A DNA stretch of 62,923 nucleotides, filler included. It is 4 parts of 4 records of this genome, joined end to end, with 100 filler letters (N's around TTAATTAATTAA, not from the genome) between each part and the next. Parts side by side here need not be neighbours in the genome. Positions count along the whole stretch, not along the records: positions 11,548 to 29,165 come from SRR20825010_3649; 3 more parts are not named here. One strand, written 5' to 3'. The notes beneath the pieces were generated by a model, which made no database searches, was not told the DNA's origin, and saw nothing but the letters and a program-made list of their open reading frames with translations. The position numbers were made by a program, and so were the translations under genes. Each line of letters opens with the position of its first letter. Position 1 is the first letter of the stretch. Of this stretch, positions 11,448 to 56,249 are shown piece after piece.

Positions 11448-11547
11448 NNNNNNNNNNNNNNNNNNNNNNNNNNNNNNNNNNNNNNNNNNNNTTAATTAAT
11501 TAANNNNNNNNNNNNNNNNNNNNNNNNNNNNNNNNNNNNNNNNNNNN
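11448..11547. other. Artificial contig spacer
   Basis: N-run, TTAATTAATTAA (stops in all six frames), N-run; 100 nt. Confidence 0.99.
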
Positions 11548-13129: not shown

Positions 13130-13902
13130 TGCCTGATAAACCCGGTAGGTATGTCAAAGCGCTTCCAGCTTCTTCCATAATGCTTGTCAGAGACGGTATG
13201 GGTGGCGTCGAGGTTCTGATGATCGAGCGCGCAAAAACCATGAAATTTGCACCGGGAGCGTTTGTTTTTCCGGGCGGGAAGGTTGACTCGGCTGACCAGC
13301 AGAATTGGCGCTGGCAAGGTATCACTACAGGACGGGGTGTCTTTCGTGACTTCAGCTATAGGGTAGCGGCGCTCAGGGAGCTATACGAGGAAGCTGGCGT
13401 GCTACAGATCGATCGGCCGCGTCGGCAAACCTTATACGCAGGTCTGCCGTTTGCTGATCTGGTTCGCTACTCTGGCGGAAAACTTGATATCGCGAATATG
13501 GTGCCATTTGCTCACTGGGTAACGCCGGAGCCCTTGCCTCGGCGGTTTGATACCCATTTTTATCTGGCGGAGCACAATGGTCAGGTTGCGCAGCATGATG
13601 GTAACGAGGCGGTATCGCTGAGATGGGTGAGCCCAAGGAAGGTGCTGAGCGACTGGGAAGAAAACAAAGTACCGCTGATGTTCCCGACACGGCTCAACCT
13701 AATGAAGTTGGCGCGAGCTAGCACCGCGGCGGGGGCGATACAACAAGCTCGGCGTTCTCCCGTAGTGCGTACCTTGCCGGTCGTGAATATGAGCGCAGCG
13801 GGTGTTAAACTCGAGATCGAAAAGGCTGCCGGGTTCGGCGTAACTTCCGCTACAGAGAAAGAATTAGCGGTTGAAGCAGGCGCCCGCCAAAATAAGCCTT
13901 GA
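13126..13902 (+). CDS. Nudix hydrolase
   Basis: FPGGKVD..AALRELYEEAG Nudix box and WVTP..RRFDTHFY; start overlaps the dnaE stop. Confidence 0.88.
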   Translation: MMPDKPGRYVKALPASSIMLVRDGMGGVEVLMIERAKTMKFAPGAFVFPGGKVDSADQQNWRWQGITTGRGVFRDFSYRVAALRELYEEAGVLQIDRPRRQTLYAGLPFADLVRYSGGKLDIANMVPFAHWVTPEPLPRRFDTHFYLAEHNGQVAQHDGNEAVSLRWVSPRKVLSDWEENKVPLMFPTRLNLMKLARASTAAGAIQQARRSPVVRTLPVVNMSAAGVKLEIEKAAGFGVTSATEKELAVEAGARQNKP

Positions 13903-13926
13903 TATTCCTTGGAAACAGGCCTATAC
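13898..13926 (+). promoter_or_regulatory. Putative sigma70 promoter of rpsB-tsf
   Basis: CTTGAT-N17-CTATAC. Confidence 0.6.
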
Positions 13927-13937
13927 GAGCCGCGACT

Positions 13938-14045
13938 TCACACGTGGGGTAGGCTACTTACTGTGTTGGTAAGGCGCCATCCGGTGTCGAAACCCAAATT
14001 CATGGGTTGCGGCGCACACTCCACGGAGGCTTAACCGGAAAAGGA
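13938..14045 (+). promoter_or_regulatory. rpsB leader (S2 autoregulatory RNA)
   Basis: Contains GGGGT near the 5' end and GGAGGCTTAACC near the 3' end, the elements I recall from rpsB leaders, with a central AAACCCA..TGGGTT hairpin. Confidence 0.65.
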
Positions 14046-14053
14046 GTAGTATT

Positions 14054-14947
14054 ATGGCAATGCCGCAAGTCGATATGCGCGCGCTTCTCGAAGCAGGCGT
14101 ACACTTTGGTCACCAGACCCACCGTTGGAACCCGAAAATGGCGCCGTTTATCTTCGGCGAGCGTAACGGTGTTCATATCGTAGACCTTTCACAAACAGTT
14201 CCTTACATGACACGCGCACTGCAAGCTATTCGTGACGTAGTGGCTGGTGGTGGTCGTGTTCTCTTTGTTGGTACAAAGCGTCAAGCTTCACCAATCATTG
14301 CAGAAGCTGCGAAGCGTTGTGGACAGTATTATGTAAATCACCGCTGGCTCGGCGGCATGATGACAAACTGGCAAACTATCAGCCAGTCCATCAAGCGCCT
14401 GAAGCAGTTGGATGAGCAGCTCAACCAAGAGCACACTGGTCTTACCAAGAAAGAAACTCTGCAGCTTACACGTCAGCGTGACAAGCTTGAACTTTCCCTT
14501 GGCGGTATTCAGGACATGGGCGGTCTTCCAGACATCCTCGTTATTGTTGACGTTATTGGCGATGACCTGGCGATTGCGGAAGCTAACCGTCTTGGCATTC
14601 CCGTTGTTGGCGTGATCGACACCAACTGTAAGCCTGATGGTGTTGACTATCCGATCCCTGGTAACGATGATGCGACCCGTGCGATCCGTCTTTATTGTGA
14701 TCTTGTTGCTGAAGCCGCTCTTGACGGTATTCAGGCTGAACTTACAGCACAGGGCGTTGATCTTGGTGCCTCTGAAGCCCCGGTTGAAGAAGCCGCTGTT
14801 GCTGAAGAGCCTGCACCAGCTGAAGAAGCTGCTCCTACAGAAGAAGTTGCACCTACTAAAGAGGCAGCTACTGCCAAAGAAGCCGCGCCTGCTAAAGCTG
14901 CAAAAGCTCCTGCGAAAAAAGCAGCTAAAGCTGCAACTGCAGAGTAA
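14054..14947 (+). CDS. rpsB: 30S ribosomal protein S2 with Ala/Glu/Lys/Pro-rich tail
   Basis: [26 protein letters not shown]. Confidence 0.99.
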
Positions 14948-15043
14948 CATTTCTCATTTAATGCTCTCGGTAGGCTGTGCGCGTACCGGGGGCACCATGT
15001 TATCTACACTTAGGCCTACATCTGGGCTGTAAGGGGAATACCA

Positions 15044-15970
15044 ATGGCACAAATTACCGCCGCTCTCGTAAAAGAACTGCGCGAACAATCTGGCGCAGGC
15101 ATGATGGATTGTAAAAAAGCACTGGCAGAAAATGACGGTGACTTGGAAGCCGCTGTTGATTGGCTCCGTACCAAAGGCCTTGCTGCTGCTGCGAAAAAAT
15201 CTGGTCGCGTAGCTGCCGAAGGCCTCGTGGCTGTAAAAGCTGCAGGCACAAAAGCCGCTGCGATTGAAATCAACTCAGAAACAGACTTCGTTGCACGCAA
15301 TGACAAGTTCCAACAGTTTGTTGGTGATCTCGCTGGTGTTGCTCTGGAAGTTGGTACAGACGTAGAAGCTATCAAAGCTTCCACATACCCAGGCAAAACC
15401 AAGCCTGTAGGTGAAGTGCTGACCGACAATATCGCCACTATCGGTGAAAACATGAACATCCGCCGCGCGTTTGTACTTGAGGTCGAGAACGGCCTTGTTG
15501 CGACATATGTTCATAACGCTGTTACTGATGGCATGGGCAAGATCGCTGTTCTTGTTGCACTGCAGTCTGAGGCGTCTGAGGAAGTTCTCGCTAATCTCGG
15601 CAAGCAGCTGGCCATGCATGTGGCAGCCGCCAACCCAGCGTCACTTTCTGAAGCCGATCTTGACCCAGAGCTTGTAGAGCGTGAAAAACAAGTTCAGATC
15701 GAGAAAGCTAAAGAATCAGGCAAGCCAATGGAAATCATCGAAAAGATGATCGTGGGCCGCATGCGCAAATACTATGAGGAAGTTGTTCTTCTCAATCAGG
15801 TGTTTGTAATGGACGGTGAAAGCAAGGTTTCCGACGTTATCGCGAAAGCTGCTAAAGAAGCTGGCACCTCTATTGAACTCACTGCTTATGCCCGCGTTGA
15901 GATGGGTGAGGGGCTGGAGAAGAAAGAAGACGACTTCGCCGCAGAAGTTGCCGCTGCTGCTGGCGTTTAA
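15044..15970 (+). CDS. tsf: Elongation factor Ts
   Basis: [27 protein letters not shown]. Confidence 0.99.
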
Positions 15971-15993
15971 GCCAACACAGTATGAGTGGTTGG

Positions 15994-16024
15994 AAGCCCA
16001 GGAGGTCTCTCCTGGGCTTTTTTA
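15994..16024 (+). terminator. Rho-independent terminator after tsf
   Basis: AAGCCCAGGAG-GTCT-CTCCTGGGCTT followed by Ts. Confidence 0.85.
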
Positions 16025-16153
16025 TGAGCAAAAATAGATTTAGGTAATTTCTGCTTAAGTCTCGGAATAAATTTAGATAAAACTACGGTAGCCATTACAT
16101 GCCCAAGCGGATAAGCTGCGGCGGGCTGAATGGCGTAGGGGAGAGTTCAGGCG

Positions 16154-16879
16154 ATGTCCAGTGGGCCTAAATATAAGCGTGTATTGCTAAAATTGTCTGG
16201 TGAAGCGCTGATGGGCGGCGGTAGTTACGGCATCGACCCAGAAACCGCTGCGCGTGTTTCGCGCGAAATCAAGCAGGCGCGTGAGATCGGTACAGAGGTC
16301 TGTGTTGTCGTTGGGGGAGGAAACATTTTCCGTGGCCTCAAAGGTGCTGCCGAAGGCTTGGACCGGTCCACTGCGGACTATATGGGCATGTTGGCCACTG
16401 TAATGAATGCCCTGGCGCTTCAAAACGCGCTTGAAAAGGCTGGCGTCGATACGAGGGTGCTGTCGGCTATCCCAATGGCAAGTGTAAGCGAGCCGTACAT
16501 TCGTCGCCGTGCAATCCGCCATTTGGAAAAGGGTCGTGTAGTAATTTTTGCTGCGGGCACTGGAAATCCTTTCTTTACAACTGATACAGCTGCAGCGCTG
16601 CGGGCCGCCGAAATGAACTGCAATGCTCTCCTGAAGGGCACACAGGTTGACGGTGTTTATAACGCTGACCCCAAGAAAGATCCATCTGCTGTGCGCTACG
16701 AAAGCCTGAGCTACATGGATGTTCTGACCCAGGACCTTAAGGTTATGGATGCATCCGCGATTTCGCTTAGCCGCGAGAATAACATTCCGATCGTTGTCTT
16801 TTCCATCCACGCCCAGAACGCGCTTGTTGACGTTCTGCAGGGAAAGGGCATCTGTACCACTGTAGGTGAGGAGCAATAA
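16154..16879 (+). CDS. pyrH: Uridylate kinase
   Basis: [30 protein letters not shown]. Confidence 0.98.
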
Positions 16880-16880
16880 A

Positions 16881-17444
16881 ATGAGTGATGAAGATCTAGA
16901 TTTGGGCGACATTGAGCGCCGCATGAAGGGCGCCGTTGATGCTTTGAAGCATGAGTTCGCGGGTTTGCGCTCCGGTCGTGCAACAACGAATATGCTCGAC
17001 CCTGTGACGGTTGATGTTTACGGCTCAAATATGCCTTTGAATCAGGTAGGCACTGTATCTGTCCCCGAGCCGCGTATGCTGAGTGTACAGGTTTGGGACA
17101 AAGCCAATGCCTCTGCTGTTGAAAAGGCTATCCGTAATGCGGGGCTTGGACTTAACCCCATGCTCGATGGTCAATTGGTTCGTATTCCTATTCCTGAACT
17201 GAACGAAGAACGGCGGGCGGAGCTGGCAAAAGTTGCCGGTAAATATGCGGAGCAGGCTCGGATTGCAATCCGGAACGTACGTCGCGACGGTATGGATCAG
17301 TTGAAGCGCATGGAAAAAGACAAGTCTATCAGTGAAGACGATCACAAAATGTATGCAGATGAAGTGCAGGACCTGACCAACAAGTTTGTTGGCGTGATTG
17401 ATGACCAGCTGCAAAGCAAAGAAAAAGAGATCATGCAGGTTTAA
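16881..17444 (+). CDS. frr: Ribosome recycling factor
   Basis: [24 protein letters not shown] 16881 after GAGGAG. Confidence 0.98.
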
Positions 17445-17445
17445 T

Positions 17446-18189
17446 ATGGCTGCTAGTGTGCACCAATGTGCTGAAGATACGTCTGGCGTCTCGTCTCTTT
17501 CTCACGTCGCCATCATCATGGATGGCAACGGCAGATGGGCTACGAAGAATGGTAAGTCACGTTCTTTAGGGCACAAAAAGGGTGCCGAGGCGGTGCGGGA
17601 AGCCATTGAGGGCGCGCTTGATTGTGGTGTTAAGTGTTTAACGCTCTATGCCTTCTCTAGTGAAAACTGGAATAGGCCAGTGGAGGAGGTCACTGACCTT
17701 ATGGCGCTCCTTAAGCTTTACCTGCAACGTGAGGTTAAGACTGTTCATAAGCAAGGGGTACGCCTGCGTGTCATTGGGCGAAGGGATCGTTTATCAGCCG
17801 ATATTGTCAAGATGATTGACAAAGCAGAGAAACGAACTGAAGCGAACACACGCATGACACTGGTGATAGCCTTAAGTTATGGTAGCCGCGATGAAATTAT
17901 TGAAGCCGCTAAGGCATTTGCAGTTTCCGTGGCGGAAGGAAAAGAAGATCCTTCACAATTGGACGAAGAAAAGTTTTCCAAAGGTTTGTGGACAAACGAT
18001 ATTCCTGACCCAGACCTGATTATTCGCACGAGCGGCGAACAACGTCTGTCGAATTTCCTTCTTTGGCAGGCAGCCTATGCTGAATTTTTGTTTCTGGATT
18101 TGCTGTGGCCAGACTTCAGCAAGATGGACTTCAGAGCTGCGGTAGATAACTATCTTGGCAGGAACCGGCGTTTTGGCGCCCGGCCATGA
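17446..18189 (+). CDS. uppS: Undecaprenyl diphosphate synthase
   Basis: HVAIIMDGNGRWA, FSSENWNRP, RTSGEQRLSNFLLWQ. Confidence 0.98.
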   Translation: MAASVHQCAEDTSGVSSLSHVAIIMDGNGRWATKNGKSRSLGHKKGAEAVREAIEGALDCGVKCLTLYAFSSENWNRPVEEVTDLMALLKLYLQREVKTVHKQGVRLRVIGRRDRLSADIVKMIDKAEKRTEANTRMTLVIALSYGSRDEIIEAAKAFAVSVAEGKEDPSQLDEEKFSKGLWTNDIPDPDLIIRTSGEQRLSNFLLWQAAYAEFLFLDLLWPDFSKMDFRAAVDNYLGRNRRFGARP

Positions 18190-18200
18190 TTGGATAATTA

Positions 18201-19013
18201 ATGCCACTCGGCCTTTCAGATAATCTCTTTCAGCGTATTGTATCGGCGCTCTTGCTGTTACCGCCAGTTTTGTGGGCCACCTATGAAGGCGGTGCTTGGT
18301 TCGCGGGCCTTCTTGCACTAGGCGGGGCGCTGATGACGCTAGAATGGTGCCAGCTTACGGCACGGAATAGTGCTCTCGAACGCATTGCAGCTCTGCTTGT
18401 GATTGTTGCACTTGCTGGTGCGCTTGAGATGCGCACGATAGATATCAGCTTCACATACGTCATTCTGGGGTTGTTGTTCCTGGTCTTGCTGGGTGTCGGA
18501 GCGGTTAGGGGGGGCGTTTCATTCGGGTGGTGGATCATCGGCGTTGCTTATGTAGCTCTGCCTATTTCATCACTATGGTTTATTAGGGATGCCAGCGGTC
18601 TGCTTGTTTTATGGGTCTTCCTTGTGACCTGGGCTACAGATGTTGGTGGCTATTTCGCAGGTAAAGGGATCGGTGGTCCTAAACTTGCTCCAAAGATCAG
18701 CCCCAAGAAAACCTGGGCTGGGTTGTTAGGTGGTATGGGGTTGAGTGTAATTGTGTCTGTGGTGATGCACCAAATTGTCCCCTTTGCCGCAGGTTTGGGA
18801 ATGATCTCACTTTTGTCAGGCCTTCTGGCGGTTTGGGCGCAGGTGGGGGATTTGCTTGAAAGTGCCGTTAAGCGCCATTTTGATGTGAAGGACTCCGGTG
18901 GGTTGATACCTGGGCACGGCGGGTTGCTTGATCGTGTTGACGGCTTGGTGTTTGTGGCACCGGCAGTGGCAGGAGTTCTGATCGTTTCCTCTGTTATTGG
19001 TTTTGAGTTTTAG
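18201..19013 (+). CDS. cdsA: Phosphatidate cytidylyltransferase
   Basis: ISPKKTWAG, GDLLESAVKRHFDVKDSG, PGHGGLLDRVD. Confidence 0.97.
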   Translation: MPLGLSDNLFQRIVSALLLLPPVLWATYEGGAWFAGLLALGGALMTLEWCQLTARNSALERIAALLVIVALAGALEMRTIDISFTYVILGLLFLVLLGVGAVRGGVSFGWWIIGVAYVALPISSLWFIRDASGLLVLWVFLVTWATDVGGYFAGKGIGGPKLAPKISPKKTWAGLLGGMGLSVIVSVVMHQIVPFAAGLGMISLLSGLLAVWAQVGDLLESAVKRHFDVKDSGGLIPGHGGLLDRVDGLVFVAPAVAGVLIVSSVIGFEF

Positions 19014-19016
19014 CAA

Positions 19017-20186
19017 ATGGATATCGTTAAAAAGCGAATAACCGTACTTGGCGCCACGGGGTCTGTGGGATTAAGTACACTTGATCTGGTTCGGAGGAAT
19101 TCGAGTAAATTCAGTATAGTATCCCTTACTGCTTATAGTAAGGTTGAGGAACTTGCCGCGCTAGCAGTAGAGTTTGGAGCTGAGCTGGCAGTTATCGGTG
19201 ACGAGACAAAGCTTGCGACGCTTCGGAACCTGCTTGCGGGTACGAGTATTGAGGCTGCGGCCGGCGAAGGCGGATTAATTGAGGCAGCAGATCGAGATGC
19301 TGAGGTCGTTATGGCAGCAATCGTGGGTGCGGCCGGTTTGAGGCCGACCATGGCTGCGGTGCGCCGAGGGGCGACCGTAGCACTTGCTAACAAAGAATGT
19401 CTCGTATGTGCGGGCGATTTGTTGATGCAGGAGGTGAAAGCTCACGGCGCTACACTTCTGCCAGTTGACTCTGAGCACAACGCCATCTTTCAGGTATTTG
19501 ACGTCAAGCGTGCAAGTAGCGTCGAGAAGGTGATATTGACAGCGTCCGGCGGGCCGTTTCGTGGCAGGTCATATGACAGTTTGAAGTCTGTTACTCCGGC
19601 GGAGGCTATCGCTCATCCAAATTGGGATATGGGTGCCAAGATATCGGTTGATTCTGCAACGATGATGAACAAAGGCTTGGAAGTCATTGAAGCTTATCAT
19701 CTTTTCCCGATTAAAAAGTCGCAGATCGATGTTCTGGTACATCCGCAATCGGTTATCCACTCCATGGTTGAATATTCGGATGGTAGCGTGCTCGCCCAGT
19801 TGGGCTCACCAGATATGCGCACACCAATAGCCTATAGTCTTGCATGGCCGGAGCGTATGAGCGCGCCTGTGAAGCGGTTGTCATTGGCAGAGATAGGCTC
19901 GCTGACGTTTGAAGAGGTAGACTTGAAGGCTTTTCGGTGTTTGGCACTGGCACGTGACGCGATGGAGGCTGGCGGTGCAGCACCTGCGATCTTGAATGCT
20001 GCAAATGAAGTGGCTGTGGCCGCTTTTCTCTCGGAAAAGCTTCGTTTTGTTGATATTTCATCTGTGGTAAGTGACACTTTGGCGGCGTGCGACATTAAAG
20101 CGCCACAATCACTTTCGAATGTGCTTGAAATTGATAGGATTGCCCGAGAGGCTGCAGAAAACCAACTGGCACTGCGCGCACAATAG
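19017..20186 (+). CDS. dxr: 1-deoxy-D-xylulose-5-phosphate reductoisomerase
   Basis: LGATGSVG, LANKE, PVDSEHNAIFQ, HPNWDMGAKIS. Confidence 0.98.
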   Translation: MDIVKKRITVLGATGSVGLSTLDLVRRNSSKFSIVSLTAYSKVEELAALAVEFGAELAVIGDETKLATLRNLLAGTSIEAAAGEGGLIEAADRDAEVVMAAIVGAAGLRPTMAAVRRGATVALANKECLVCAGDLLMQEVKAHGATLLPVDSEHNAIFQVFDVKRASSVEKVILTASGGPFRGRSYDSLKSVTPAEAIAHPNWDMGAKISVDSATMMNKGLEVIEAYHLFPIKKSQIDVLVHPQSVIHSMVEYSDGSVLAQLGSPDMRTPIAYSLAWPERMSAPVKRLSLAEIGSLTFEEVDLKAFRCLALARDAMEAGGAAPAILNAANEVAVAAFLSEKLRFVDISSVVSDTLAACDIKAPQSLSNVLEIDRIAREAAENQLALRAQ

Positions 20187-20252
20187 AATGATGGTGCTTT
20201 TGGTGTGTAGCTTTATGGAAACGATGAATAAGAATAAGGACCGAGGATAGTC

Positions 20253-21362
20253 ATGGAAACCGAAGGCCCGGGGCTTCTGTTTACGATAGCCGCTTTTGTT
20301 GGCGGGTTTAGTATACTTGTCTTCATACATGAATGGGGACATTACGCCGTAGCACGCCTTTTTGGTGTGAAGGTTGATACGTTTTCAATTGGTATGGGCC
20401 GCGAGGTCATCGGGCGTACCGATAAGAACGGCACACGATGGAAAGTTAGCATTCTACCTCTGGGTGGTTATGTAAAGTTTTTTGGTGATGCTTCTGCCGC
20501 GAGTAACCCTGGCGATATCCCAGAAGGTATGAGCGCTGAGGACAGGGCGGTTTGTTATCATTTCAAACCCCTCTGGCAGCGTGCGCTGATCGTTTTCGCT
20601 GGCCCGGCGATAAACTTGATCGCGGCAGCCTTGGTTTTTGCATCTTTCTTTTACAGCTACGGTATTGGGATATCAGAACCCGTTATCGAAACGGTGGTTG
20701 AGGATTCAGCTGCCTTTGAGGCAGGTCTGGAGCCGGGAGACCGCATTCTCAGCATCAACGGCGAAGAAATTGAACGCTTCTCTGACGTTGGGGGTATTGT
20801 TCGCCTCTATCCAGGTGGCAACATCACAATGCTCGTCGAGCGTAACGGCCGTGAACTTAGTAAGGTTGTGACGCTGGGCATCGCCTATATGGAGGATAGG
20901 TTCGGTAATCGGTATCCATATGGCCGCCTAGGTATTAGTTCTCCTGCGGTCGAGCGTGTTGAGCTAGGCCCAATTGGAGCCCTTGCCGAAGGGGGGCGCC
21001 AGACGGTTGAGATGACCGATACGATCTTCACAACCCTGGGCCAGATGATTATGGGCCTGAGGTCTGTCCGCGAACTTGGTGGGCCAGCCCGTATAGCCAG
21101 TATGGTTGGTGAGGCAGCGCACATTAGTGCGCAGAACTTTATCTGGTTGCTGGCGCTCTTGTCACTCAACCTTGGAATTCTGAATCTTTTGCCGATCCCT
21201 GTGCTGGACGGCGGCCATTTGCTCTATTACGGGCTGGAGGCAGTTAAGGGTTCACCACTAAGCAAGAAGGCCCAAGAAGCGGGTTTCGTGGCGGGTTTCG
21301 CCTTAATGGTGATTTTTATGCTTCTTGTAACACTGAATGACTTGCAATCCATGGCACTCTAG
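20253..21362 (+). CDS. rseP: Intramembrane zinc metalloprotease RseP
   Basis: HEWGH, PDZ domain, NLLPIPVLDGGH. Confidence 0.97.
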   Translation: METEGPGLLFTIAAFVGGFSILVFIHEWGHYAVARLFGVKVDTFSIGMGREVIGRTDKNGTRWKVSILPLGGYVKFFGDASAASNPGDIPEGMSAEDRAVCYHFKPLWQRALIVFAGPAINLIAAALVFASFFYSYGIGISEPVIETVVEDSAAFEAGLEPGDRILSINGEEIERFSDVGGIVRLYPGGNITMLVERNGRELSKVVTLGIAYMEDRFGNRYPYGRLGISSPAVERVELGPIGALAEGGRQTVEMTDTIFTTLGQMIMGLRSVRELGGPARIASMVGEAAHISAQNFIWLLALLSLNLGILNLLPIPVLDGGHLLYYGLEAVKGSPLSKKAQEAGFVAGFALMVIFMLLVTLNDLQSMAL

Positions 21363-21411
21363 GCCAATTTCACCGCCAAAGTTGCCGAAAAGATAAGAAT
21401 GGGCTGAAAAG

Positions 21412-23973
21412 TTGCGTTTAAATAAACTGAGTTTGACGTGGCGCTTTATACTAGCGCTCACCATCGGGGGGATTTCGTTTACTGGGTCGGTTTCGGCTCA
21501 GCAACAAGCGGCCCAACAGGTACCAATCATCCGCCAGATCAGCGTGGTCGGAAACGAACGCGTTGAGCCTGAGACCATCGCGTCCTATCTATCAGTCTCA
21601 CCGGGTGAACCGTTTGATCCAGTAAAACTAGATGAAAGCCTGAAAGCACTTTTTGCGACCGGCCTGTTCTCTGATGTTGAATTATCAGAGGTACAAGGCG
21701 CACTGCTGGTGCGTGTGGTTGAGAATCCCATCATTAACCGGATTGTTTTTGAGGGGAACAAGCGTCTTGACCGCGAAGAGTTACTTGAAGAAGTAAGGCT
21801 TCGCCCTCGCATGGTATTTACGCGCGCTAAAGTACGTTCTGATGTCCAGCGCATGCTTGAGCTCTATCGTCGCTCTGGCCGCTTTGCTGCGATTATTGAG
21901 CCAAAAGTTGTGCAGTTAGAACAAAACCGTGTTGATCTTTTGTTTGAAGTGCAGGAGGGCCCAAAAACTAAAGTCAGCAGCATTAAATTCATTGGCAACA
22001 AGAAATTTAGTGATGGTGACCTTAGGGATGTACTCGCTACAAAGCAGGCTCGTTGGTGGAAGCTGTTTACCTCAAACGACACATTTGATCCTGATCGGCT
22101 TGCATATGACCAGCAGATATTGCGCCAGCATTACCTGAACGAGGGCTATGCAGATTTTCGCACGGTTTCGGCGGTATCTGAACTTACACCTGACCGTAAG
22201 GACTTCTTCATTACTTTTACGGTTGATGAAGGTGAGATTTATAACTTTGGCAAGATTGACGTTGAGAGTGAAATTAGGGACGTAAACGTTAACTTGTTCC
22301 GGGCTTTCCTTCTGATGCGTGAAGGCGATACCTACAACGCTGAAGCAATTGAAAAAACAATTGAAGCGCTATCAAACGCAGCTGGTCTTCTGGGCTATGC
22401 GTTTGTTGATGTTCGGCCTCAAATCAACAGGAACCGTGAAGAGCGCACAATTGATATCAACTTCCGAGTGCTTGATGCGCCAAGGGTATATGTTGAGCGC
22501 GTTAACATTACGGGTAACGTTCGTACGCTGGATAGGGTTATCCGCAGGGAGTTCCGCCTGCAAGAAGGCGATGCCTTCAACTCCGCATTGGTAACGCGTT
22601 CCGAGAACCGCCTGAACCGTTTGAACTTCTTCCGTGAAGTTGAGGTCGAGCAGGTGCAAGGTAGTCAGCCCGACCGTATGGTGCTGGAGGTGGGCGTGGA
22701 AGAGCAGGCTACGGGTGAATTGAACCTAGGTGCCGGTTTCTCCAGCCTTGAGAATTTTATCTTTGACTTCTCTATCCGTGAGCGGAACCTGATGGGTAAA
22801 GGTCAGGACCTTCGACTTGGACTTCGCCTTTCAGGTACACGTCAAGAAATTGATCTAGGCTTTACTGAACCATATTTTATGGGCAGGAACGTGGCTGCGG
22901 GTGTTGACCTCTTCGCTCGGAAGATTGATAGCAGCAGCTATGGCTCATACTTTGATACCAAATCCATCGGTTTCTCCCTGCGGGCAGGGATGGCAATCAA
23001 CGAGTTTTGGACACTGTCCACCCGCTATACGCTTCGTCAGGATGATGTGTCCTTGCTCGATAGCTATCTTAATGCGGTGTACAACACATACTTCGACGCG
23101 CGCACGACAAATGGTATTACCGATCAAGACGAATTCGATCGGCGAGTTAGCCGCTTCGATAACAATAACGACGGTGTCGTTAATCTTGATGATTTTGACA
23201 CCGATGGAAATGGGACTATTAGTCAGGAAGAAAAGCAAGTTGCGCTGAGCCGCGGTGTACAGGACTCTATTGGCAAGCGGTATCAGTCTATCGTTGGCTA
23301 CACCGTGGGTTTTGATACGCGGAACAGCATTATTCGTCCTACACGAGGCCACAACTTCTTCTTCAGTCAGGATTTCGCTGGCCTTGGCGGGGATGTTCGC
23401 TATCTTCGATCAACCATAACCACGGACAACTACTGGACTCCCTGGGAGGGCTGGACATTCCGGTTGGGCGGTGAAGCAGGCATTATCCATGGCCTTGGGC
23501 AAGACGTACGGCTGTCCGACAAGTTCTTTATCGGTGGCCCTCGTATTCGCGGGTTTGATACCGCCGGTATGGGCCCGAGAGACTTTGCTAACAACCAGTC
23601 GATTGGTGGTACAGCATACTATATCGGCCGAGGTGAATTGTTCTTCCCTCTCGGTGATGCTGCCCTTGAGAGTGGTATCAATGCCTCAGCCTTTGTGGAC
23701 GTGGGCTCGCTGTTCAGAGCACAAGAAGATGCTTTGGCACCGTGTACCTTCAGCCGGGCAGAGTATGACGCAGCGGTTGTGGATAATGACTTTTCGGGCC
23801 TCGACCTGAACTGTATGTCAGGAAATAGCGCCAAACCGCGTCTGTCTGTTGGTATTGGCTTCTCATGGCAGTCGCCATTTGGCCCGTTCCGGATTGACCT
23901 ATCCAAACAGCTGCGTAAACAGCTTGGTGACCGGACACAAACGCTGCAGTTCAATGTCGGTACGACATTCTAA
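21412..23973 (+). CDS. bamA: Outer membrane protein assembly factor BamA
   Basis: Signal peptide, POTRA repeats, IRGF loop-6 motif, SPFGP, C-terminal FNVGTTF. Confidence 0.97.
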   Translation: MRLNKLSLTWRFILALTIGGISFTGSVSAQQQAAQQVPIIRQISVVGNERVEPETIASYLSVSPGEPFDPVKLDESLKALFATGLFSDVELSEVQGALLVRVVENPIINRIVFEGNKRLDREELLEEVRLRPRMVFTRAKVRSDVQRMLELYRRSGRFAAIIEPKVVQLEQNRVDLLFEVQEGPKTKVSSIKFIGNKKFSDGDLRDVLATKQARWWKLFTSNDTFDPDRLAYDQQILRQHYLNEGYADFRTVSAVSELTPDRKDFFITFTVDEGEIYNFGKIDVESEIRDVNVNLFRAFLLMREGDTYNAEAIEKTIEALSNAAGLLGYAFVDVRPQINRNREERTIDINFRVLDAPRVYVERVNITGNVRTLDRVIRREFRLQEGDAFNSALVTRSENRLNRLNFFREVEVEQVQGSQPDRMVLEVGVEEQATGELNLGAGFSSLENFIFDFSIRERNLMGKGQDLRLGLRLSGTRQEIDLGFTEPYFMGRNVAAGVDLFARKIDSSSYGSYFDTKSIGFSLRAGMAINEFWTLSTRYTLRQDDVSLLDSYLNAVYNTYFDARTTNGITDQDEFDRRVSRFDNNNDGVVNLDDFDTDGNGTISQEEKQVALSRGVQDSIGKRYQSIVGYTVGFDTRNSIIRPTRGHNFFFSQDFAGLGGDVRYLRSTITTDNYWTPWEGWTFRLGGEAGIIHGLGQDVRLSDKFFIGGPRIRGFDTAGMGPRDFANNQSIGGTAYYIGRGELFFPLGDAALESGINASAFVDVGSLFRAQEDALAPCTFSRAEYDAAVVDNDFSGLDLNCMSGNSAKPRLSVGIGFSWQSPFGPFRIDLSKQLRKQLGDRTQTLQFNVGTTF

Positions 23974-23995
23974 AAAAGATCATAGGGAATATAAA

Positions 23996-24583
23996 ATGGG
24001 TACGTTTTTAAAAACACTTAAACTTGGCATGGTAGCTGTTGCTGCGATGGTTGGCATTAGTGCGGTATCATCAGCACAGATATTGACCGTAGATGATGAA
24101 CGGGTTGAGCGTGAAGCTGCGGCTTATAAGGACTTCAACCTGCAGACTAATGAACTGCGCCAAAGCATATTGCAGCGTCGCCAGATGGTAACGCGTGGCG
24201 GAGCAATCGAGCAGCAGCTTGCAGACCTTGAGAAACGCAAGGCGATCATTGGCAACGATAAATACGAAGAAGAAAAGCGGAAGCTGGAGCAAACTTATGT
24301 ACGCTTTCAACAAGAACTTGCTCAGCTTGAGTATGTTTTTGACCAGCTTCGTCAGGAAGCTATGGTGCAAGTTGAGCGTGCGCGCCAACCGGTTATCCGT
24401 AGCCTGCTCGCGGAACGCAATGCTCAGGTCATTATGATGAAGCGCCTTCTCCTCGGTTCAGCTGCGGGCATTGATGTAACCACACAGTTTATTGAAAAGC
24501 TGGATGCTGAACTGCCAAACGTGACGCTGAATTTGCCAAAGGCGGGTGATGCTCCTGCTGCTGAACAACCAGAACAGCAATAA
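23996..24583 (+). CDS. skp: OmpH/Skp-like periplasmic chaperone
   Basis: Signal peptide, long coiled coil, C-terminal IDVT..IEKLD; position after bamA. Confidence 0.8.
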   Translation: MGTFLKTLKLGMVAVAAMVGISAVSSAQILTVDDERVEREAAAYKDFNLQTNELRQSILQRRQMVTRGGAIEQQLADLEKRKAIIGNDKYEEEKRKLEQTYVRFQQELAQLEYVFDQLRQEAMVQVERARQPVIRSLLAERNAQVIMMKRLLLGSAAGIDVTTQFIEKLDAELPNVTLNLPKAGDAPAAEQPEQQ

Positions 24584-24605
24584 CATTTAGATTGGCGCAT
24601 CGAAG

Positions 24606-25043
24606 ATGACATTCGATATCGAGAAAATCATGGAACTGATACCACACCGGTATCCGTTCCTGCTTGTGGATAAGGTTGTTGATATTGTGCCGGGCGAAAG
24701 CGGAACCGGGATCAAGAATGTCACGATGAATGAGCCATTTTTTCCAGGTCATTTCCCACAGAAACCTGTGATGCCGGGCGTTTTGATCCTTGAGGCAATG
24801 GCCCAAACAGCCGGGGCGCTGGCGATCGATTTTCTTGGAGACGATGCCAAGGGCAAAGTTGTTTACTTCATGGCGATTGACGGAGCAAAGTTCCGTAAAC
24901 CGGTTGTGCCGGGCGACCGCCTTGAAATGAAGCTCGTGAAGGTCCGGGGGCGTGGCGCGGTTTGGAAGTTTGATGCGAAAGCTTATGTCGACGATGAGTT
25001 GACAACGGAAGCGACATTGACAGCGATGCTTGGTGGAAACTAG
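24606..25043 (+). CDS. fabZ: 3-hydroxyacyl-ACP dehydratase
   Basis: IPHRYPFLLVD, GHFPQKPVMPGVLILEAMAQ. Confidence 0.98.
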   Translation: MTFDIEKIMELIPHRYPFLLVDKVVDIVPGESGTGIKNVTMNEPFFPGHFPQKPVMPGVLILEAMAQTAGALAIDFLGDDAKGKVVYFMAIDGAKFRKPVVPGDRLEMKLVKVRGRGAVWKFDAKAYVDDELTTEATLTAMLGGN

Positions 25044-25068
25044 CTCCAAGGTATTTCTAAATTCATGG

Positions 25069-25093
25069 AAGGCGGCCTATTGGCCGCCTTTTT
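25069..25093 (+). terminator. Rho-independent terminator closing the operon directly after fabZ
   Basis: AAGGCGGCC-TATT-GGCCGCCTT followed by Ts. Confidence 0.85.
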
Positions 25094-25204
25094 CATTTGG
25101 GTCATAAAGCTCCAGTATACTGGATGATTAGCAATGACATTTTGATCTAGGCGTATATTGGGCTATCTTATGCCAGAGAGGCGGCACAGAACGAAGGCCG
25201 TTCC

Positions 25205-26269
25205 GTGTGCGAGGTCGGCCATATGTACAAGTTCCCCGTTAATGATCTAACCCGCATATATGCGGGTTTTAACGATAACTTCCAAAGCAAAACTACGCCT
25301 TATGACTTCTTTAAGGTAGGCGAATCTGCGTCCGCGAACGGCGTACGTCTGGAGTTGAATGACCGGGTTGCCTCGGGCTATTGGGAACTTTTTCGCCCAG
25401 ATAGCGGTATACTTATTTGTGTAGCTGATGGTTTATATCACCGTGCATATCAGGAAGTCATCACACCAAAACAAGATGTGATTACGGTACGGTTTGTGCT
25501 CTCAGGTAAGATGTCTGTTCGTCTGGCGGGAAAACGTAGCATTGACATCCCACAGTGCAGCGCTTCTGTTCTACATATTAAGCAGTCCGAAGACTTCGAA
25601 CTCACCATTAGCGGCAACAGTCATCTATGTTCCGTCAGCTTCCATCTTGAACCGGGAATTCTACGAGACAGGTTTCACTTGGAAGGAGATCGTCTGCCAC
25701 CTCTCTTGCGTGATTTGGTGTTTGGGGCAGGTGGGACCCGGCCTCCGTATAACTTTCCCATGTCGGCTCATACCATCAATGTTGTCAACGATGTGTTGAA
25801 GATGCGGTTTGAGGGAGGGCGTCGGAGCGCATATGTACAGGCCAAGATGGTGGAACTTCTGTGTCGCCTGTTTCAAGAGGTGGAGGATGAATACCTGGGG
25901 AACAGGCAAATACTGACAGGCCCAAAGCAGAGTGTGCGCAAAAAGGTACACCGTGCGCATCAGATCCTTATCGCAAACTATATGAAGCCGCCGCCTATAG
26001 CCTCTCTGGCGAGGGAAGTGGGGCTCAACCGCAGCACGCTGAGCGCGGAATTCAAGAAGGTGTTTGGAATCAGTATATTTTCCTTCTCCCAAGACTATCG
26101 GCTTGATAAAGCGCGTGAGCTTCTGGGGAACCGCGACCTTTCCATTCAGGAGGTAGCAGAGATAGTTGGCTATGATTATGCTGCGAATTTTACGGCTGCT
26201 TTCAAGCGAAAGTACGGATTGCTTCCAAAGGATATACGCGTCGCTCCGCAGGTAGCTATCCTTCAGTAG
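25205..26269 (+). CDS. AraC-family transcriptional regulator (start may be ATG 25223)
   Basis: C-terminal double HTH: IASLAREVGLNRSTL..FKKVFG and IQEVAEIVGYDYAANFTAAFKRKYG. Confidence 0.92.
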   Translation: MCEVGHMYKFPVNDLTRIYAGFNDNFQSKTTPYDFFKVGESASANGVRLELNDRVASGYWELFRPDSGILICVADGLYHRAYQEVITPKQDVITVRFVLSGKMSVRLAGKRSIDIPQCSASVLHIKQSEDFELTISGNSHLCSVSFHLEPGILRDRFHLEGDRLPPLLRDLVFGAGGTRPPYNFPMSAHTINVVNDVLKMRFEGGRRSAYVQAKMVELLCRLFQEVEDEYLGNRQILTGPKQSVRKKVHRAHQILIANYMKPPPIASLAREVGLNRSTLSAEFKKVFGISIFSFSQDYRLDKARELLGNRDLSIQEVAEIVGYDYAANFTAAFKRKYGLLPKDIRVAPQVAILQ

Positions 26270-26412
26270 GCTGAATTCGCCGATAAATTACTGTCATGCG
26301 GAATTGACGATCTCAGTATTATTTTGGACGACCTCATAATTCCTTGTCAGAAAATTTCAATATTATCTCTCAAGCAATAACAGGATTGCTCTGACAATGA
26401 GGGTTAACAGCC

Positions 26413-28686
26413 ATGAATAAAAAATTAGATGCCTACGCGAAACAGCGTAGCATTTTCAGGGAAGGATTGGCGGCATCTACCGCTATTTCACAGTGTCTTG
26501 CTCTTGGTCTTTTAGGAGGAATCGCATTTAGCGGTGCGGCTTCTGCGCAACAAGCTGAAAGTAGTGACATGACGTTCGAAGAGATCGTGGTTACGTCTCG
26601 AAAACGTTCAGAATCGATGATGGATATTCCCATGAGTATCAACGTGGTCTCAGAAGGCCTGATTGAGAAGATGGGTGCCTCCAACTATACAGATTTGCTT
26701 GCATCAGTTCCCAGCCTGACAGCGTATCAGAACGGGCCGGGGCGTACTCGCCTGGTTATCCGTGGTGTTGCGAACACTTCAAGCGGGGCGAATGATAACG
26801 ATACACAGAACCAGGAAACAGTGGGCATCTATCTTGATGAAATTCCTATTTCGACCGGGGCGCTTAATCCGGAACTAGGACTGTTTGACCTGGAACGTGT
26901 AGAGGTTTTGCGCGGACCGCAAGGAACGCTATACGGCGCAGGTTCCATGACAGGAACGATCAGGCTTGTGTCCAAGAAACCGAACTTGCGGGAATTTGAA
27001 GGTAAGGTGGACGCGTCGCTTTCGACCATCAATAAGGGCAGCGAAAACTACGACGTTAAAGCGCTCGTGAATATTCCTGTGGTTGAGGATAGGTTCGCGC
27101 TTCGTACATCCGCCTACTACGAGAAGAACGGTGGATACATCGATAACGTTCTGACCGGCGAAAAAGACATTAACCATGGACGGGCTGTTGGTGCTCGCGT
27201 TTCCGCTAGACTTCAGTTAAGCGAGGCCTTCACGGCGGATTTTTCCTTCTTCCATCATGATTATTCCGACAATGGCCGCCCTGAAGATCTTGACCATACG
27301 CCACTGTTTTCGCGCGATTATCCATCAAACGATGGATATGACGACGAGATGCAAATCTATAACCTTACGCTCAATTATGATTTGGGCTGGGGGGAGATAG
27401 TATCTTCAACGTCGTATTTCGACCGCAAGGTGGTAAACCGTCGTTCGCTTGATCTCCTTTTTGAAACATTGCCTCCACAGATCGTGCCGCATGAGTTGAT
27501 CGACACAACGGATACTGATGTGTTTGTTCAGGAAATTCGCTTGGCTTCGCAGACGGAATCGCCACTTCAGTGGACCGTTGGGGCCTACTTGGACAAGAAG
27601 GATGTACTCTATCTGAATACATTTCCGGTTCCAGGTGCGGACGCTATTCTCGGCGATTCGAGCAACTTTGGCGCACCGAAAGACCATCTCTACTATGGTT
27701 ATGATGACCTTGAGGTTAAAACATACGCATTGTTTGGTGAAGCTTATTATACTTGGGATAAGTTTACATTTACCGCGGGCTTGCGCTACTTCAACTGGAA
27801 GCAGGACATTGAGTTCTATCAGTCTGGCCTTTTCAATGGGGGCGCCAACAGCGATGTGCGACCACAAAGTACGGTCGATGGCGTGAACCCCAAGTTCAAT
27901 ATCTCCTATCAGATAAATGACGATAATCTGGTCTATGTACAGATGGCCAAAGGTTTCCGTTATGGGGGTATTAATGGTGCCATTCCTGAGGCGGTGTGTG
28001 CCGATGAACTAGCACAGGTTGAACGCGAAGGAGGAGACACGCGGTTCTTTAACCCTGATAAAACCTGGAACTATGAAATTGGTAGCAAAAATTCGCTGGC
28101 TGATGGACGGGTAACGTTGAACGCCAGCTACTTCCATATCAAATGGCAGGACATGCAAACGTCACGCGGCTTTGAATGTGGCTTTGGCTTCAAGGAGAAT
28201 GTGGGCGAAGCGACGAGCCAAGGTATCGAGCTTGAGCTGAATGCCCGGGTTACAGAGAACTTGAGCCTCTACCTGGGTGGTACCTACATCAACTCGGAAC
28301 TGGCACAAGATGTACCAAATCTGGGCGCGGAAGAGGGCGACAAAGCGCCGTTTGTCCCTGAATTTGCGTTCAATACGTCAGCAGACTATGTACGTCCCCT
28401 CACTGACACAATGGATGGCTTCATCTGGGCCAACGTTCAGTATGTGGGTGAAAGAAACAGCCATTTCTCGGATGATGACGCCAATTTCCGGGCTATGGAT
28501 GGCTATTTCGTGTCAAACCTTCGTGTTGGTACCCGTTGGGACAATCTGGAACTCTCTGTGTTTGCTAACAATTTGTTTGATGGGCGAGGTGTTATTCGCG
28601 CAATGCGTAGACCACCATTCGACCCCGATGCGACTATCAAGGTTGAGCCACGTACGATTGGTGTTTCACTACGCGCCAATTTCTAA
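26413..28686 (+). CDS. TonB-dependent receptor
   Basis: Signal peptide, TonB box EEIVVTSRK, plug motif VEVLRGPQGTLYGAG, terminal Phe. Confidence 0.95.
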   Translation: MNKKLDAYAKQRSIFREGLAASTAISQCLALGLLGGIAFSGAASAQQAESSDMTFEEIVVTSRKRSESMMDIPMSINVVSEGLIEKMGASNYTDLLASVPSLTAYQNGPGRTRLVIRGVANTSSGANDNDTQNQETVGIYLDEIPISTGALNPELGLFDLERVEVLRGPQGTLYGAGSMTGTIRLVSKKPNLREFEGKVDASLSTINKGSENYDVKALVNIPVVEDRFALRTSAYYEKNGGYIDNVLTGEKDINHGRAVGARVSARLQLSEAFTADFSFFHHDYSDNGRPEDLDHTPLFSRDYPSNDGYDDEMQIYNLTLNYDLGWGEIVSSTSYFDRKVVNRRSLDLLFETLPPQIVPHELIDTTDTDVFVQEIRLASQTESPLQWTVGAYLDKKDVLYLNTFPVPGADAILGDSSNFGAPKDHLYYGYDDLEVKTYALFGEAYYTWDKFTFTAGLRYFNWKQDIEFYQSGLFNGGANSDVRPQSTVDGVNPKFNISYQINDDNLVYVQMAKGFRYGGINGAIPEAVCADELAQVEREGGDTRFFNPDKTWNYEIGSKNSLADGRVTLNASYFHIKWQDMQTSRGFECGFGFKENVGEATSQGIELELNARVTENLSLYLGGTYINSELAQDVPNLGAEEGDKAPFVPEFAFNTSADYVRPLTDTMDGFIWANVQYVGERNSHFSDDDANFRAMDGYFVSNLRVGTRWDNLELSVFANNLFDGRGVIRAMRRPPFDPDATIKVEPRTIGVSLRANF

Positions 28687-28730
28687 CCATCCGGTAGGGT
28701 GCTTCTATGACGTCCTACCTATCAGAAACA

Positions 28731-28765
28731 AAGAAAGGGCTGCGAAATTCGCAGCCCTTTTGCTT
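28731..28765. terminator. Bidirectional terminator between the TonB receptor and gltA
   Basis: AAAGGGCTGCGA-AAT-TCGCAGCCCTTT with A-rich and T-rich flanks. Confidence 0.8.
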
Positions 28766-28779
28766 TACTTTTGGTCCAA

Positions 28780-29165
28780 TTATCCGCGTTCTGCAACCGG
28801 CACATAATCTCGTTTTGGTGCGCCAGTATATAGCTGACGTGGGCGTCCGATTTTCTGCGTTGGATCCTCAACCATTTCTTTCCACTGCGCGATCCAACCT
28901 GCCGTGCGCGCGAGCGCAAACAGTACTGTGAACATTGCTGTCGGGAAGCCCATCGCTTTCAGGATAATGCCTGAATAGAAATCCACGTTCGGGTAGAGCT
29001 TTTTCTCAACAAAATATGGATCTTCGAGAGCAATCTTCTCAAGCTCCATGGCAACATCGAAGAGAGGATCGTCAACACCCAGTTCTTGCAGAACCCTGTG
29101 TGCCGTGTCGCGCATCACGGTCGCCCGTGGATCAAAGTTTTTGTAAACGCGGTGACCAAAGCCCA
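28780..29165 (-). CDS. gltA: Citrate synthase, C-terminal fragment
   Basis: [32 protein letters not shown]; 5' part cut by the spacer. Confidence 0.97.
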
Positions 29166-29265
29166 NNNNNNNNNNNNNNNNNNNNNNNNNNNNNNNNNNN
29201 NNNNNNNNNTTAATTAATTAANNNNNNNNNNNNNNNNNNNNNNNNNNNNNNNNNNNNNNNNNNNN
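29166..29265. other. Artificial contig spacer
   Basis: Same N/TTAATTAATTAA/N linker. Confidence 0.99.
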
Positions 29266-56149: not shown

Positions 56150-56249
56150 NNNNNNNNNNNNNNNNNNNNNNNNNNNNNNNNNNNNNNNNNNNNTTAATTA
56201 ATTAANNNNNNNNNNNNNNNNNNNNNNNNNNNNNNNNNNNNNNNNNNNN
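56150..56249. other. Artificial contig spacer
   Basis: Same N/TTAATTAATTAA/N linker. Confidence 0.99.

What the first reader, a model, noticed from the sequence alone, without database searches (positions are those of the whole stretch)
23974..28780. Lipid A genes missing from the bamA-fabZ-gltA cluster: possible LPS-less alphaproteobacterium
Seen: bamA, skp and fabZ follow each other with gaps of about 22 nt, leaving no room for lpxD. A terminator sits right after fabZ, then AraC, a TonB receptor and convergent gltA. Known: in many Alphaproteobacteria this cluster runs bamA-(skp)-lpxD-fabZ-lpxA-lpxI-lpxB with gltA convergent, and Sphingomonadales lack lipid A and use glycosphingolipids instead. 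Inference: both flanks are intact while lpx genes are absent on both sides of fabZ, which suggests pathway loss rather than one random deletion. If the organism lies outside Sphingomonadales (it looks Kordiimonadales-like to me), it could have an undescribed LPS-free outer membrane.
Basis: partly seen in the sequence, partly recalled or inferred. Interest (0 to 1): 0.75.

Follow-up and report, generated by a model that had tools for sequence, protein, structure and literature searches.

The report
Kordiimonas lacks lipid A genes
This marine Kordiimonas bacterium and its whole family lack the genes for lipid A, the usual outer-membrane lipid of Gram-negative bacteria, and carry a sphingolipid-making and export gene set instead; this was known for Sphingomonas, and the same swap shows up in several other alphaproteobacterial lineages.

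Summary
The segment is 100% identical to G001, a complete single-contig Kordiimonas genome. G001 has no LpxA, B, C, D, K or WaaA, while positive controls hit. It has a Caulobacter-type sphingolipid cluster (aasR-cerR-acp-spt, cpgC/cpgB-like, bCerS-like) holding its only lptFG pair; the lptD-linked lptFG pair is gone. The trait is not strain-specific: LpxC 0 of 38 and Spt 38 of 38 in the family; LpxC 0 of 151 and Spt 145 of 151 in its GTDB order, which includes Sphingomonas. The loss is therefore probably inherited from an ancestor shared with sphingomonads: a known kind of envelope, not reported for Kordiimonadales in my 10 literature searches. Wider result: all 18 LpxC-negative Alphaproteobacteria of 2.5 Mb or more in a 301-genome sample have Spt. 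lpx-less lineages do not form one clade (AU p=5e-61), and none of 31 carries the LPS-type LptG. No lipid chemistry was done. The AraC-TonB receptor pair is an unrelated strain-level insertion. The scan's earlier notes held no such finding.

The parts
21412..23973 (+). bamA, outer membrane protein assembly factor
   Evidence: TIGR03303 731.9 bits over cut-off 297
23996..24583 (+). skp/OmpH-like periplasmic chaperone
   Evidence: PF03938 E 1e-4, below cut-off; syntenic with skp in relatives
24584..24605 (.). 22-nt gap where lpxD lies in lipid A-positive relatives
24606..25043 (+). fabZ
   Evidence: TIGR01750 192 bits over cut-off; 96% to K. gwangyangensis
25069..25093 (+). terminator-like hairpin right after fabZ, where lpxA-lpxI-lpxB follow in relatives
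   Evidence: fold z -3.87; similar hairpin in two named Kordiimonas; not listed by scan
25205..26269 (+). AraC-family regulator, strain-level insertion
   Evidence: absent at this site in K. gwangyangensis, K. lipolytica
26413..28686 (+). TonB-dependent receptor, strain-level insertion
   Evidence: absent at this site in the same two relatives
28733..28761 (.). two-way terminator between receptor and gltA
   Evidence: z -4.29
28780..29165 (-). 3' part of gltA (citrate synthase), cut by scaffold gap
   Evidence: full 429 aa in G001

Best explanation
The organism is a Kordiimonas that cannot make Kdo-lipid A. Shown from genomes: lpxA/B/C/D/K and waaA are not found in its complete genome, and the lptFG pair that sits before lptD in LPS producers is gone. 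It keeps LptD, LptA, LptB, LptC, and one lptFG pair inside a Caulobacter-type sphingolipid cluster (G001 3741261-3753811: aasR, cerR, acpR, spt; opposite strand cpgC-like, cpgB-like, DUF2141; lptF, lptG, flippase-like, csaA, bCerS-like). Inferred: Spt, bCerS and CerR make dihydroceramide. The CpgB-like kinase and CpgC-like Tam41 protein turn it into an anionic phosphosphingolipid such as ceramide phosphoglycerate. The cluster's flippase and LptF2G2, with LptB-C-A-D, carry it to the outer leaflet in place of LPS. History (inferred): one loss in the ancestor of the GTDB Sphingomonadales plus at least three sister families, shared with Sphingomonas. The lpx-free bamA-skp-fabZ-gltA arrangement is its scar.
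For: G001 complete, 1 contig, 100% identical over 14.1 kb and the whole segment. No LpxC (8), LpxB (9, 67), WaaA (13, 57), LpxK (25), LpxD (56). The four weak LpxA-profile hits (<=34 bits vs cut-off 231) are GlmU, NeuD-like and Vat/CatB-like acetyltransferases. Thalassospira, Ferrovibrio and Sneathiella controls hit in the same calls. Same absences in named K. gwangyangensis, K. lipolytica, E. milleporae. Family LpxC 0/38, Spt 38/38; order 0/151 and 145/151. No lpxC after ftsZ and no lptFG before lptD, unlike Thalassospira. Spt: E 1.5e-167 to PDB 2x8u against 3e-67 for the next enzyme class; NF047599 610 bits over cut-off 500. Cluster order matches Caulobacter CC_1165-CC_1154 as described in PMC11324152 and is conserved in three named relatives. 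Exactly one LptF/LptG pair in G001 and in 35 of 45 family genomes; G001's LptG falls outside the LPS-type clade. Caulobacter survives without lipid A only with anionic sphingolipids (PMC9393093 passages). Species tree: a 14-row lpx-less clade with Sphingomonas, SH-aLRT 100; the Spt tree agrees (0.994).
Against: No lipid analysis exists in my evidence; I found no paper reporting sphingolipids or absence of LPS in Kordiimonas. KdsA and KdsB are kept, though beside a capsule-synthesis gene (PF05159) and without WaaA. Spt scores 614 bits on the alpha-specific model NF047603, under its cut-off of 670. bCerS, CpgB, CpgC and flippase names rest on synteny plus family-level hits (GNAT, DAGK_cat, Tam41-like Atlas lead at 10% of members, weak MatE), not on direct comparison with Caulobacter proteins. 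LpxI, LpxH, LpxL, MsbA, LptE, cpgA and GSL glycosyltransferases were not searched genome-wide. All tree markers come from one locus, and the branch to Sphingomonadaceae is long (0.67). PMC7179689 and PMC8879329 place Kordiimonadales apart from Sphingomonadales.
Confidence: 0.8

Rival explanations
1. LPS is absent, but the outer leaflet is built mainly from other lipids (ornithine lipids, glycoglycerolipids, phospholipids), and sphingolipids are a minor component.
For: OlsB homologues are reported for Kordiimonadales (PMC12971839 passages) and an Agt-type glycolipid transferase for K. gwangyangensis (PMC8231724 passages). CPG is a small share of the Caulobacter lipidome (PMC9393093). No sphingoglycolipid report for Kordiimonas was found.
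Against: The only LptFG sits in the spt cluster; Spt is in 38 of 38 family genomes; all 18 LpxC-negative genomes of 2.5 Mb or more in the class sample have Spt, against 19 of 270 LpxC-positive ones.
Confidence: 0.12
2. Same envelope, but Kordiimonadales lost lipid A independently of sphingomonads (the orders are not close kin).
For: PMC7179689 groups Kordiimonadales with lipid A-positive Sneathiellales (EKRS clade); PMC8879329 argues that GTDB over-clusters. Independent losses do occur elsewhere.
Against: Three gene sets agree on one lpx-less clade that excludes Sneathiella or has no lpx-positive core member: species markers, Spt and LptG2 (0.998, with one lpx-positive genome, G279, nested in it). 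I did not run an AU test of EKRS.
Confidence: 0.15
3. Lipid A is still made by very divergent or non-homologous enzymes, or the genes were missed.
For: LptA/B/C/D and KdsA/B are kept; the search tool uses a loose first filter; WaaA survives in G011 within the order.
Against: Six separate families give no hit in a complete genome and across the family, while 270 of 301 class genomes give LpxC hits, down to 4e-33 at the weakest; three loci show the missing genes.
Confidence: 0.04
4. Assembly artefact or one-strain deletion.
For: The window is a stitched scaffold with N-linker joints.
Against: Identical to closed genome G001; same arrangement in named relatives and across the order.
Confidence: 0.01

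Closest known systems
LPS-free, glycosphingolipid outer membrane of Sphingomonas spp. / Sphingomonadaceae (as summarised in PMC9393093 and PMC11324152)
   Same: No lipid A genes; same bamA-skp-fabZ arrangement without lpx (S. parapaucimobilis record); closely related Spt; same LptG2 class; same clade.
   Different: Different family, and a different order outside GTDB. The genes are in one compact cluster, whereas PMC11324152 describes them as scattered in S. wittichii and Z. mobilis. Head group predicted from cpgB/cpgC-like genes to be phosphoglycerate-type; glycosphingolipid transferases not tested; no chemistry.
Caulobacter crescentus sphingolipid cluster CC_1168-CC_1152 (aasR cerR acpR spt cpgC cpgB cpgA lptF2 lptG2 bCerS)
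   Same: Gene order aasR-cerR-acp-spt, opposite-strand Tam41-like and kinase genes, lptF-lptG, flippase-like and GNAT acyltransferase.
   Different: Caulobacter keeps lipid A and a first LptFG. G001 has neither, has one LptC only, and no cpgA, CC_1158, CC_1153/1152 or lptC2 beside the cluster (not searched elsewhere). It carries DUF2141 and csaA in the cluster.
Lipid A-deficient Caulobacter mutants (delta-lpxC delta-fur; PMC9393093)
   Same: Survival without lipid A tied to anionic sphingolipids.
   Different: Laboratory suppressor state versus a natural, family-wide, ancient state; fur status of Kordiimonas not examined.
spt distribution in the SERIK group (PMC10411912, section 8 read)
   Same: Already reports spt and its four-gene operon peaking in SERIK taxa.
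   Different: That paper's main text has 0 occurrences of 'lipid A' or 'LPS'; it does not link spt to loss of LPS or to Lpt paralogues. Its table S5 was not visible to me.

Membership tests
Sphingomonad-type LPS-free sphingolipid outer membrane | No lipid A (Raetz) pathway genes | tested here: met
   LpxA/B/C/D/K and WaaA not found in complete G001, controls positive; LpxI/H/L not searched genome-wide
Sphingomonad-type LPS-free sphingolipid outer membrane | Serine palmitoyltransferase with acpR, aasR, cerR, bCerS | tested here: met
   bCerS by synteny and GNAT/Atlas match only
Sphingomonad-type LPS-free sphingolipid outer membrane | Glucuronosyl-ceramide glycosphingolipids and their glycosyltransferase | not tested
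   no search for the transferase was run; the cluster points to phosphosphingolipids
Sphingomonad-type LPS-free sphingolipid outer membrane | Chemical absence of LPS and presence of sphingolipids in the outer leaflet | not testable with these tools
   needs lipid analysis; no report found
Sphingomonadales (GTDB sense) | Same order as Sphingomonas | tested here: met
   family f7 of G001's order is sister to named S. parapaucimobilis; PMC8879329 table lists Kordiimonadaceae there
Sphingomonadaceae (family where the loss was shown) | Nested within Sphingomonas and kin | tested here: not met
   G001 groups with Kordiimonas and Eilatimonas, support 100
Caulobacter-type phosphosphingolipid cluster | cpgB kinase and cpgC (Tam41-like) next to spt | tested here: met
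   DAGK_cat E 9e-15; Atlas Tam41/cytidylyltransferase leads; PMC11324152 supplement says CC_1161 homologues are Tam41-like
Caulobacter-type phosphosphingolipid cluster | lptF2-lptG2 in the cluster | tested here: met
Caulobacter-type phosphosphingolipid cluster | cpgA, CC_1158, CC_1153, CC_1152 (CPG2 synthesis) and lptC2 | tested here: inconclusive
   not seen in about 40 kb around spt; one LptC-family hit in G001; no genome-wide search for the others

The most novel reading that the evidence does not exclude
Replacing LPS by sphingolipids is a repeatable route in Alphaproteobacteria, not a Sphingomonas oddity. A lineage first carries the spt + LptF2G2 cassette alongside LPS (11 of 11 such genomes tested have two LptG), then drops the lpx genes and the LPS-type LptF1G1 while keeping the shared LptA/LptD bridge. 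This happened once at the base of a large clade holding Kordiimonadaceae, Sphingomonadaceae and sister families, and again in about six other lineages: a Dongiaceae clade, f67, a Ferrovibrio sister genus, single genera of f36 and f141, and a clade of Parvibaculaceae-labelled MAGs. LptF2G2 would then be the dedicated sphingolipid extractor, and cultured Kordiimonas a clean natural test of it.
Probability: 0.65. Interest if true: 0.8.

Novelty: new member of a known kind. Interest (0 to 1): 0.62.

Why it matters
Lipid A is treated as near-universal in Gram-negative bacteria, and the papers I read name only Sphingomonas and spirochaetes as natural exceptions (PMC9393093 passages). The genomes extend the exception to a cultured marine family and, by gene content, to many more Alphaproteobacteria. 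How sphingolipids reach the outer membrane is stated to be unknown (PMC11324152). An organism whose only LptFG is the sphingolipid-linked one makes that question directly testable, without an LPS background. The shared loss plus shared cassette is also a rare genomic character bearing on the disputed placement of Kordiimonadales next to Sphingomonadales. It further predicts that these marine bacteria lack classical endotoxin and may contribute to marine sphingolipid pools.

Tried and rejected
1) The window's own assembly is not held; G001 stood in for it (identical over 11548-29165). Window segments 1, 3 and 4 were not matched to G001; the 15 kb of G001 next to segment 2 do not match segment 1. 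2) Weak LpxA-profile hits as cryptic LpxA/LpxD: rejected. 3) Four other alpha-oxoamine synthases of G001 as Spt: rejected; they sit with bio, tdh and hem-type neighbours or match CqsA. 4) KdsA/KdsB as a sign of LPS: rejected as capsule-linked, no WaaA. 5) Extra LptF/G copies in the family as LPS-type: the Eilatimonas second LptG falls in the LptG2 group; the other 9 genomes with extra copies were not placed. 6) AraC/TonB receptor as the element that displaced lpxA-I-B: rejected, relatives lack both the insertion and the lpx genes. 7) One single loss for all lpx-less Alphaproteobacteria: rejected. 8) My NOLPX label on G266 was wrong (lpxA/I/B are beside fabZ); that row is not in the 31-row tree or AU test. 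G266 and G393 are probably draft gaps for lpxC. 9) Literature searches found no report of lipid A loss in Kordiimonadales or of the class-wide pattern; PMC11334938 and PMC12583986 passages had nothing on it. The library lacks most subscription journals, including most species descriptions. 10) Earlier scan notes did not bear on this. No structure prediction or complex job was run.
Full report
Setting. The window is a stitched scaffold: N-runs with a linker at 11448-11547, 29166-29265 and 56150-56249. The finding lies in segment 11548-29165, which is 100% identical to G001, a complete one-contig 4.18-Mb genome. Its FabZ is 96% identical to Kordiimonas gwangyangensis, and G001 is sister to that species in all trees.

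Observation. Confirmed as written: bamA, skp-like and fabZ with 22-nt gaps, a hairpin after fabZ, AraC, a TonB receptor, convergent gltA. In K. gwangyangensis and K. lipolytica, fabZ lies about 175 bp from gltA, so the AraC-receptor pair is a strain-level insertion into an already lpx-free site.

Genome-wide test. In G001 there is no match for LpxC, LpxB (9, 67), WaaA (13, 57), LpxK (25) or LpxD (56). The LpxA profile gives four hits of at most 34 bits (cut-off 231), which are GlmU, two NeuD-like and one Vat/CatB-like acetyltransferase. Thalassospira gave full hits for LpxA, LpxK and WaaA; Ferrovibrio and Sneathiella for LpxD; Ferrovibrio for LpxB. The tool's E. coli and Caulobacter controls rang in the family searches. 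The three named relatives K. gwangyangensis, K. lipolytica and Eilatimonas milleporae behave like G001. Two further loci agree: ftsZ is followed by an ArsR-type regulator rather than lpxC, and lptD-surA has no lptF-lptG in front of it, both unlike Thalassospira. Kept are LptD (28), LptC, LptA, LptB (62, 73), and KdsA/KdsB, which sit beside a capsule-synthesis gene (29, 48, 73). LpxI, LpxH, LpxL, MsbA and LptE were not searched genome-wide.

What replaces it. One of five alpha-oxoamine synthases is a serine palmitoyltransferase: E 1.5e-167 to PDB 2x8u against 3e-67 for the best non-SPT; NF047599 over its cut-off, NF047603 under. It ends the operon acyl-AMP ligase, NAD-dependent reductase, ACP, spt. 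Opposite lie a Tam41-like protein, a DAG-kinase-family protein and DUF2141; then lptF, lptG, a flippase-like protein, csaA and a GNAT acyltransferase. This mirrors the Caulobacter cluster described in PMC11324152 (passages and supplement passages), where CC_1160 is a ceramide kinase, CC_1161 is Tam41-like, CC_1154 is bCerS and LptF2/G2 are proposed, untested, sphingolipid transporters. The cluster is conserved in the three named relatives. This lptFG pair is the only one in G001, and 35 of 45 family genomes have exactly two PF03739 matches. Mechanism: the gene content is shown; ceramide and CPG synthesis, and export through LptF2G2-C-A-D, are inferred from Caulobacter, where anionic sphingolipids are needed to live without lipid A (PMC9393093 passages).

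How far it extends. LpxC: 0 of 151 genomes in G001's GTDB order (0 of 130 high quality; family 0 of 38). Spt at E<=1e-110: 145 of 151 (family 38 of 38). Family f7 of that order is Sphingomonadaceae: its BamA is 66% identical to S. parapaucimobilis, and it is sister to that record. PMC8879329 (passages) confirms that GTDB files Kordiimonadaceae, Emcibacteraceae and Rhodothalassiaceae in Sphingomonadales, and disputes it; PMC7179689 (passages) groups Kordiimonadales with Sneathiellales. The other family codes cannot be named. In an IQ-TREE LG+C20 tree (31 of my 86 rows, 1760 columns, markers from this one locus, quick search), 14 lpx-less rows form a clade at SH-aLRT 100. It holds Kordiimonadaceae, Sphingomonas, four more families of the order and three outside families; Sneathiella, which has lpx genes, is outside. 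Spt and LptG2 trees give the same group. One shared loss is the simplest reading.

Class-wide pattern. In 301 Alphaproteobacteria of at least 95% completeness, 270 have LpxC and 40 have Spt; these tallies include two genomes flagged unpublished (G182, G339). Spt is in 21 of 31 LpxC-negative and 19 of 270 LpxC-positive genomes (odds ratio 28; kin are not independent, so the p-value overstates). Eleven of the 31 negatives were not listed by the tool, and I deduced them from missing handle numbers. Five of these were confirmed by LpxB search and locus (G342, G365, G392, G415, G435), two by locus only (G316, G414), G017; G378 and G416 were not rechecked; G393 has lpxA/I/B. All 18 negatives of 2.5 Mb or more have Spt. 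The 10 without Spt are 1.0-2.0 Mb, and two of them keep lpxA/I/B. Three lpx-less genomes have an lpx-positive sister at support 99-100 (G392/G286, G415/G181, G242/Ferrovibrio). The 20 lpx-less rows are rejected as one clade (AU p 4.75e-61; group defined by the trait, after I had seen earlier trees), with at least 7 changes on the tree; the direction as losses is inferred from the 270 of 301 majority. LptG copy number follows suit (49 genomes): one in 5 of 6 lpx+/Spt- genomes (none in a draft), two in 11 of 11 lpx+/Spt+, one in 29 of 31 lpx-/Spt+ (none in G212, G435), counting adjacent LptF cross-hits out. In 24 of those 31 it lies within about 15 kb of spt. In a 58-row LptG tree, 16 rows form an LPS-type clade (support 1.0; 12 of 16 seen next to lptD), all from lpx-positive genomes; none of 32 rows from 31 lpx-less genomes falls in it. 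One row (G298b) was not recovered, and two (G209b, G305b) aligned weakly and sit on a long branch. Exception: G462, a 7.4-Mb MAG, gave no LpxB, LpxD, Spt or LptG hit but has WaaA; its LpxC was not tested.

Comparison with print. Works like the Sphingomonas envelope and uses the Caulobacter gene set; not a member of Sphingomonadaceae. spt in these taxa is already reported (PMC10411912, section 8 read whole, passages, PDF supplement searched; table S5 not visible), without mention of LPS. Ten searches found no report of lipid A loss in Kordiimonadales or of the repeated swap. Most species descriptions, subscription journals and bioRxiv supplements were out of reach, so this is 'not found', not 'unpublished'. 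Passages of PMC12971839, PMC8231724 and PMC12583986 note OlsB homologues, a glycolipid transferase and no shc in these taxa, which keeps other lipids in play. Passages of PMC11334938 were not relevant.

Verdict. Real and genome-wide; a new member of a known kind of envelope, probably from the same ancestral loss as sphingomonads, with no chemistry yet. The value lies in the wider pattern and in the clean test system for sphingolipid transport. Interest 0.62.

Noticed in passing
window 11448-11547, 29166-29265, 56150-56249: The window joins four pieces with N-runs and a linker; GC is 0.54, 0.51, 0.58, 0.51. The third piece (acnB) looks gammaproteobacterial to me (recalled, untested), so the source assembly may be mixed and could supply foreign lpx genes to a same-bin search.
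   Followed up: partly
G462 (genome of L033): 7.4-Mb MAG with bamA-skp-fabZ-gltA free of lpx; no LpxB, LpxD, Spt or LptG hit but WaaA present. Possibly a lineage without lipid A or Spt, or an incomplete bin.
   Followed up: partly
G212 and G435 (family f67): lpx-less, Spt-positive, but no LptG at E<=1e-36 although G212 is complete; sister genus G342 has one.
   Followed up: partly
L222:10621-11733 (G207): A degenerate LpxB-like gene (93 bits, cut-off 190) stays after fabZ in a genome without LpxC, LpxD or WaaA.
   Followed up: no
G011:C1:915636-916154; G224:C23:23946-24467: WaaA-family genes kept in lpx-less genomes; possibly Kdo transfer to another acceptor.
   Followed up: no
L248:6571-15465 (G001): kdsA and kdsB lie between a flagellin and a capsule-synthesis (PF05159) gene, with pyruvyl-transferase and TPR genes; a capsule anchored without LPS.
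   Followed up: partly
L111:8104-9345 (G001): CqsA-like autoinducer synthase (NF005526, 452 bits over cut-off 428) between a histidine kinase and a response regulator.
   Followed up: no
L303 (G279) and L143 (Eilatimonas second pair): The LptG2 of lpx-positive G279 nests among Sphingomonadales-clade LptG2 with the Eilatimonas second copy (0.966), suggesting transfer of the cassette.
   Followed up: no
L108:2844-3497 (G001): Vat/CatB-like acetyltransferase, 277 bits, under the Vat cut-off of 300.
   Followed up: no
G043 (same family, complete): No FabZ match at E<=1e-25; L261 (G165) also lacks fabZ between lpxD and lpxA.
   Followed up: no
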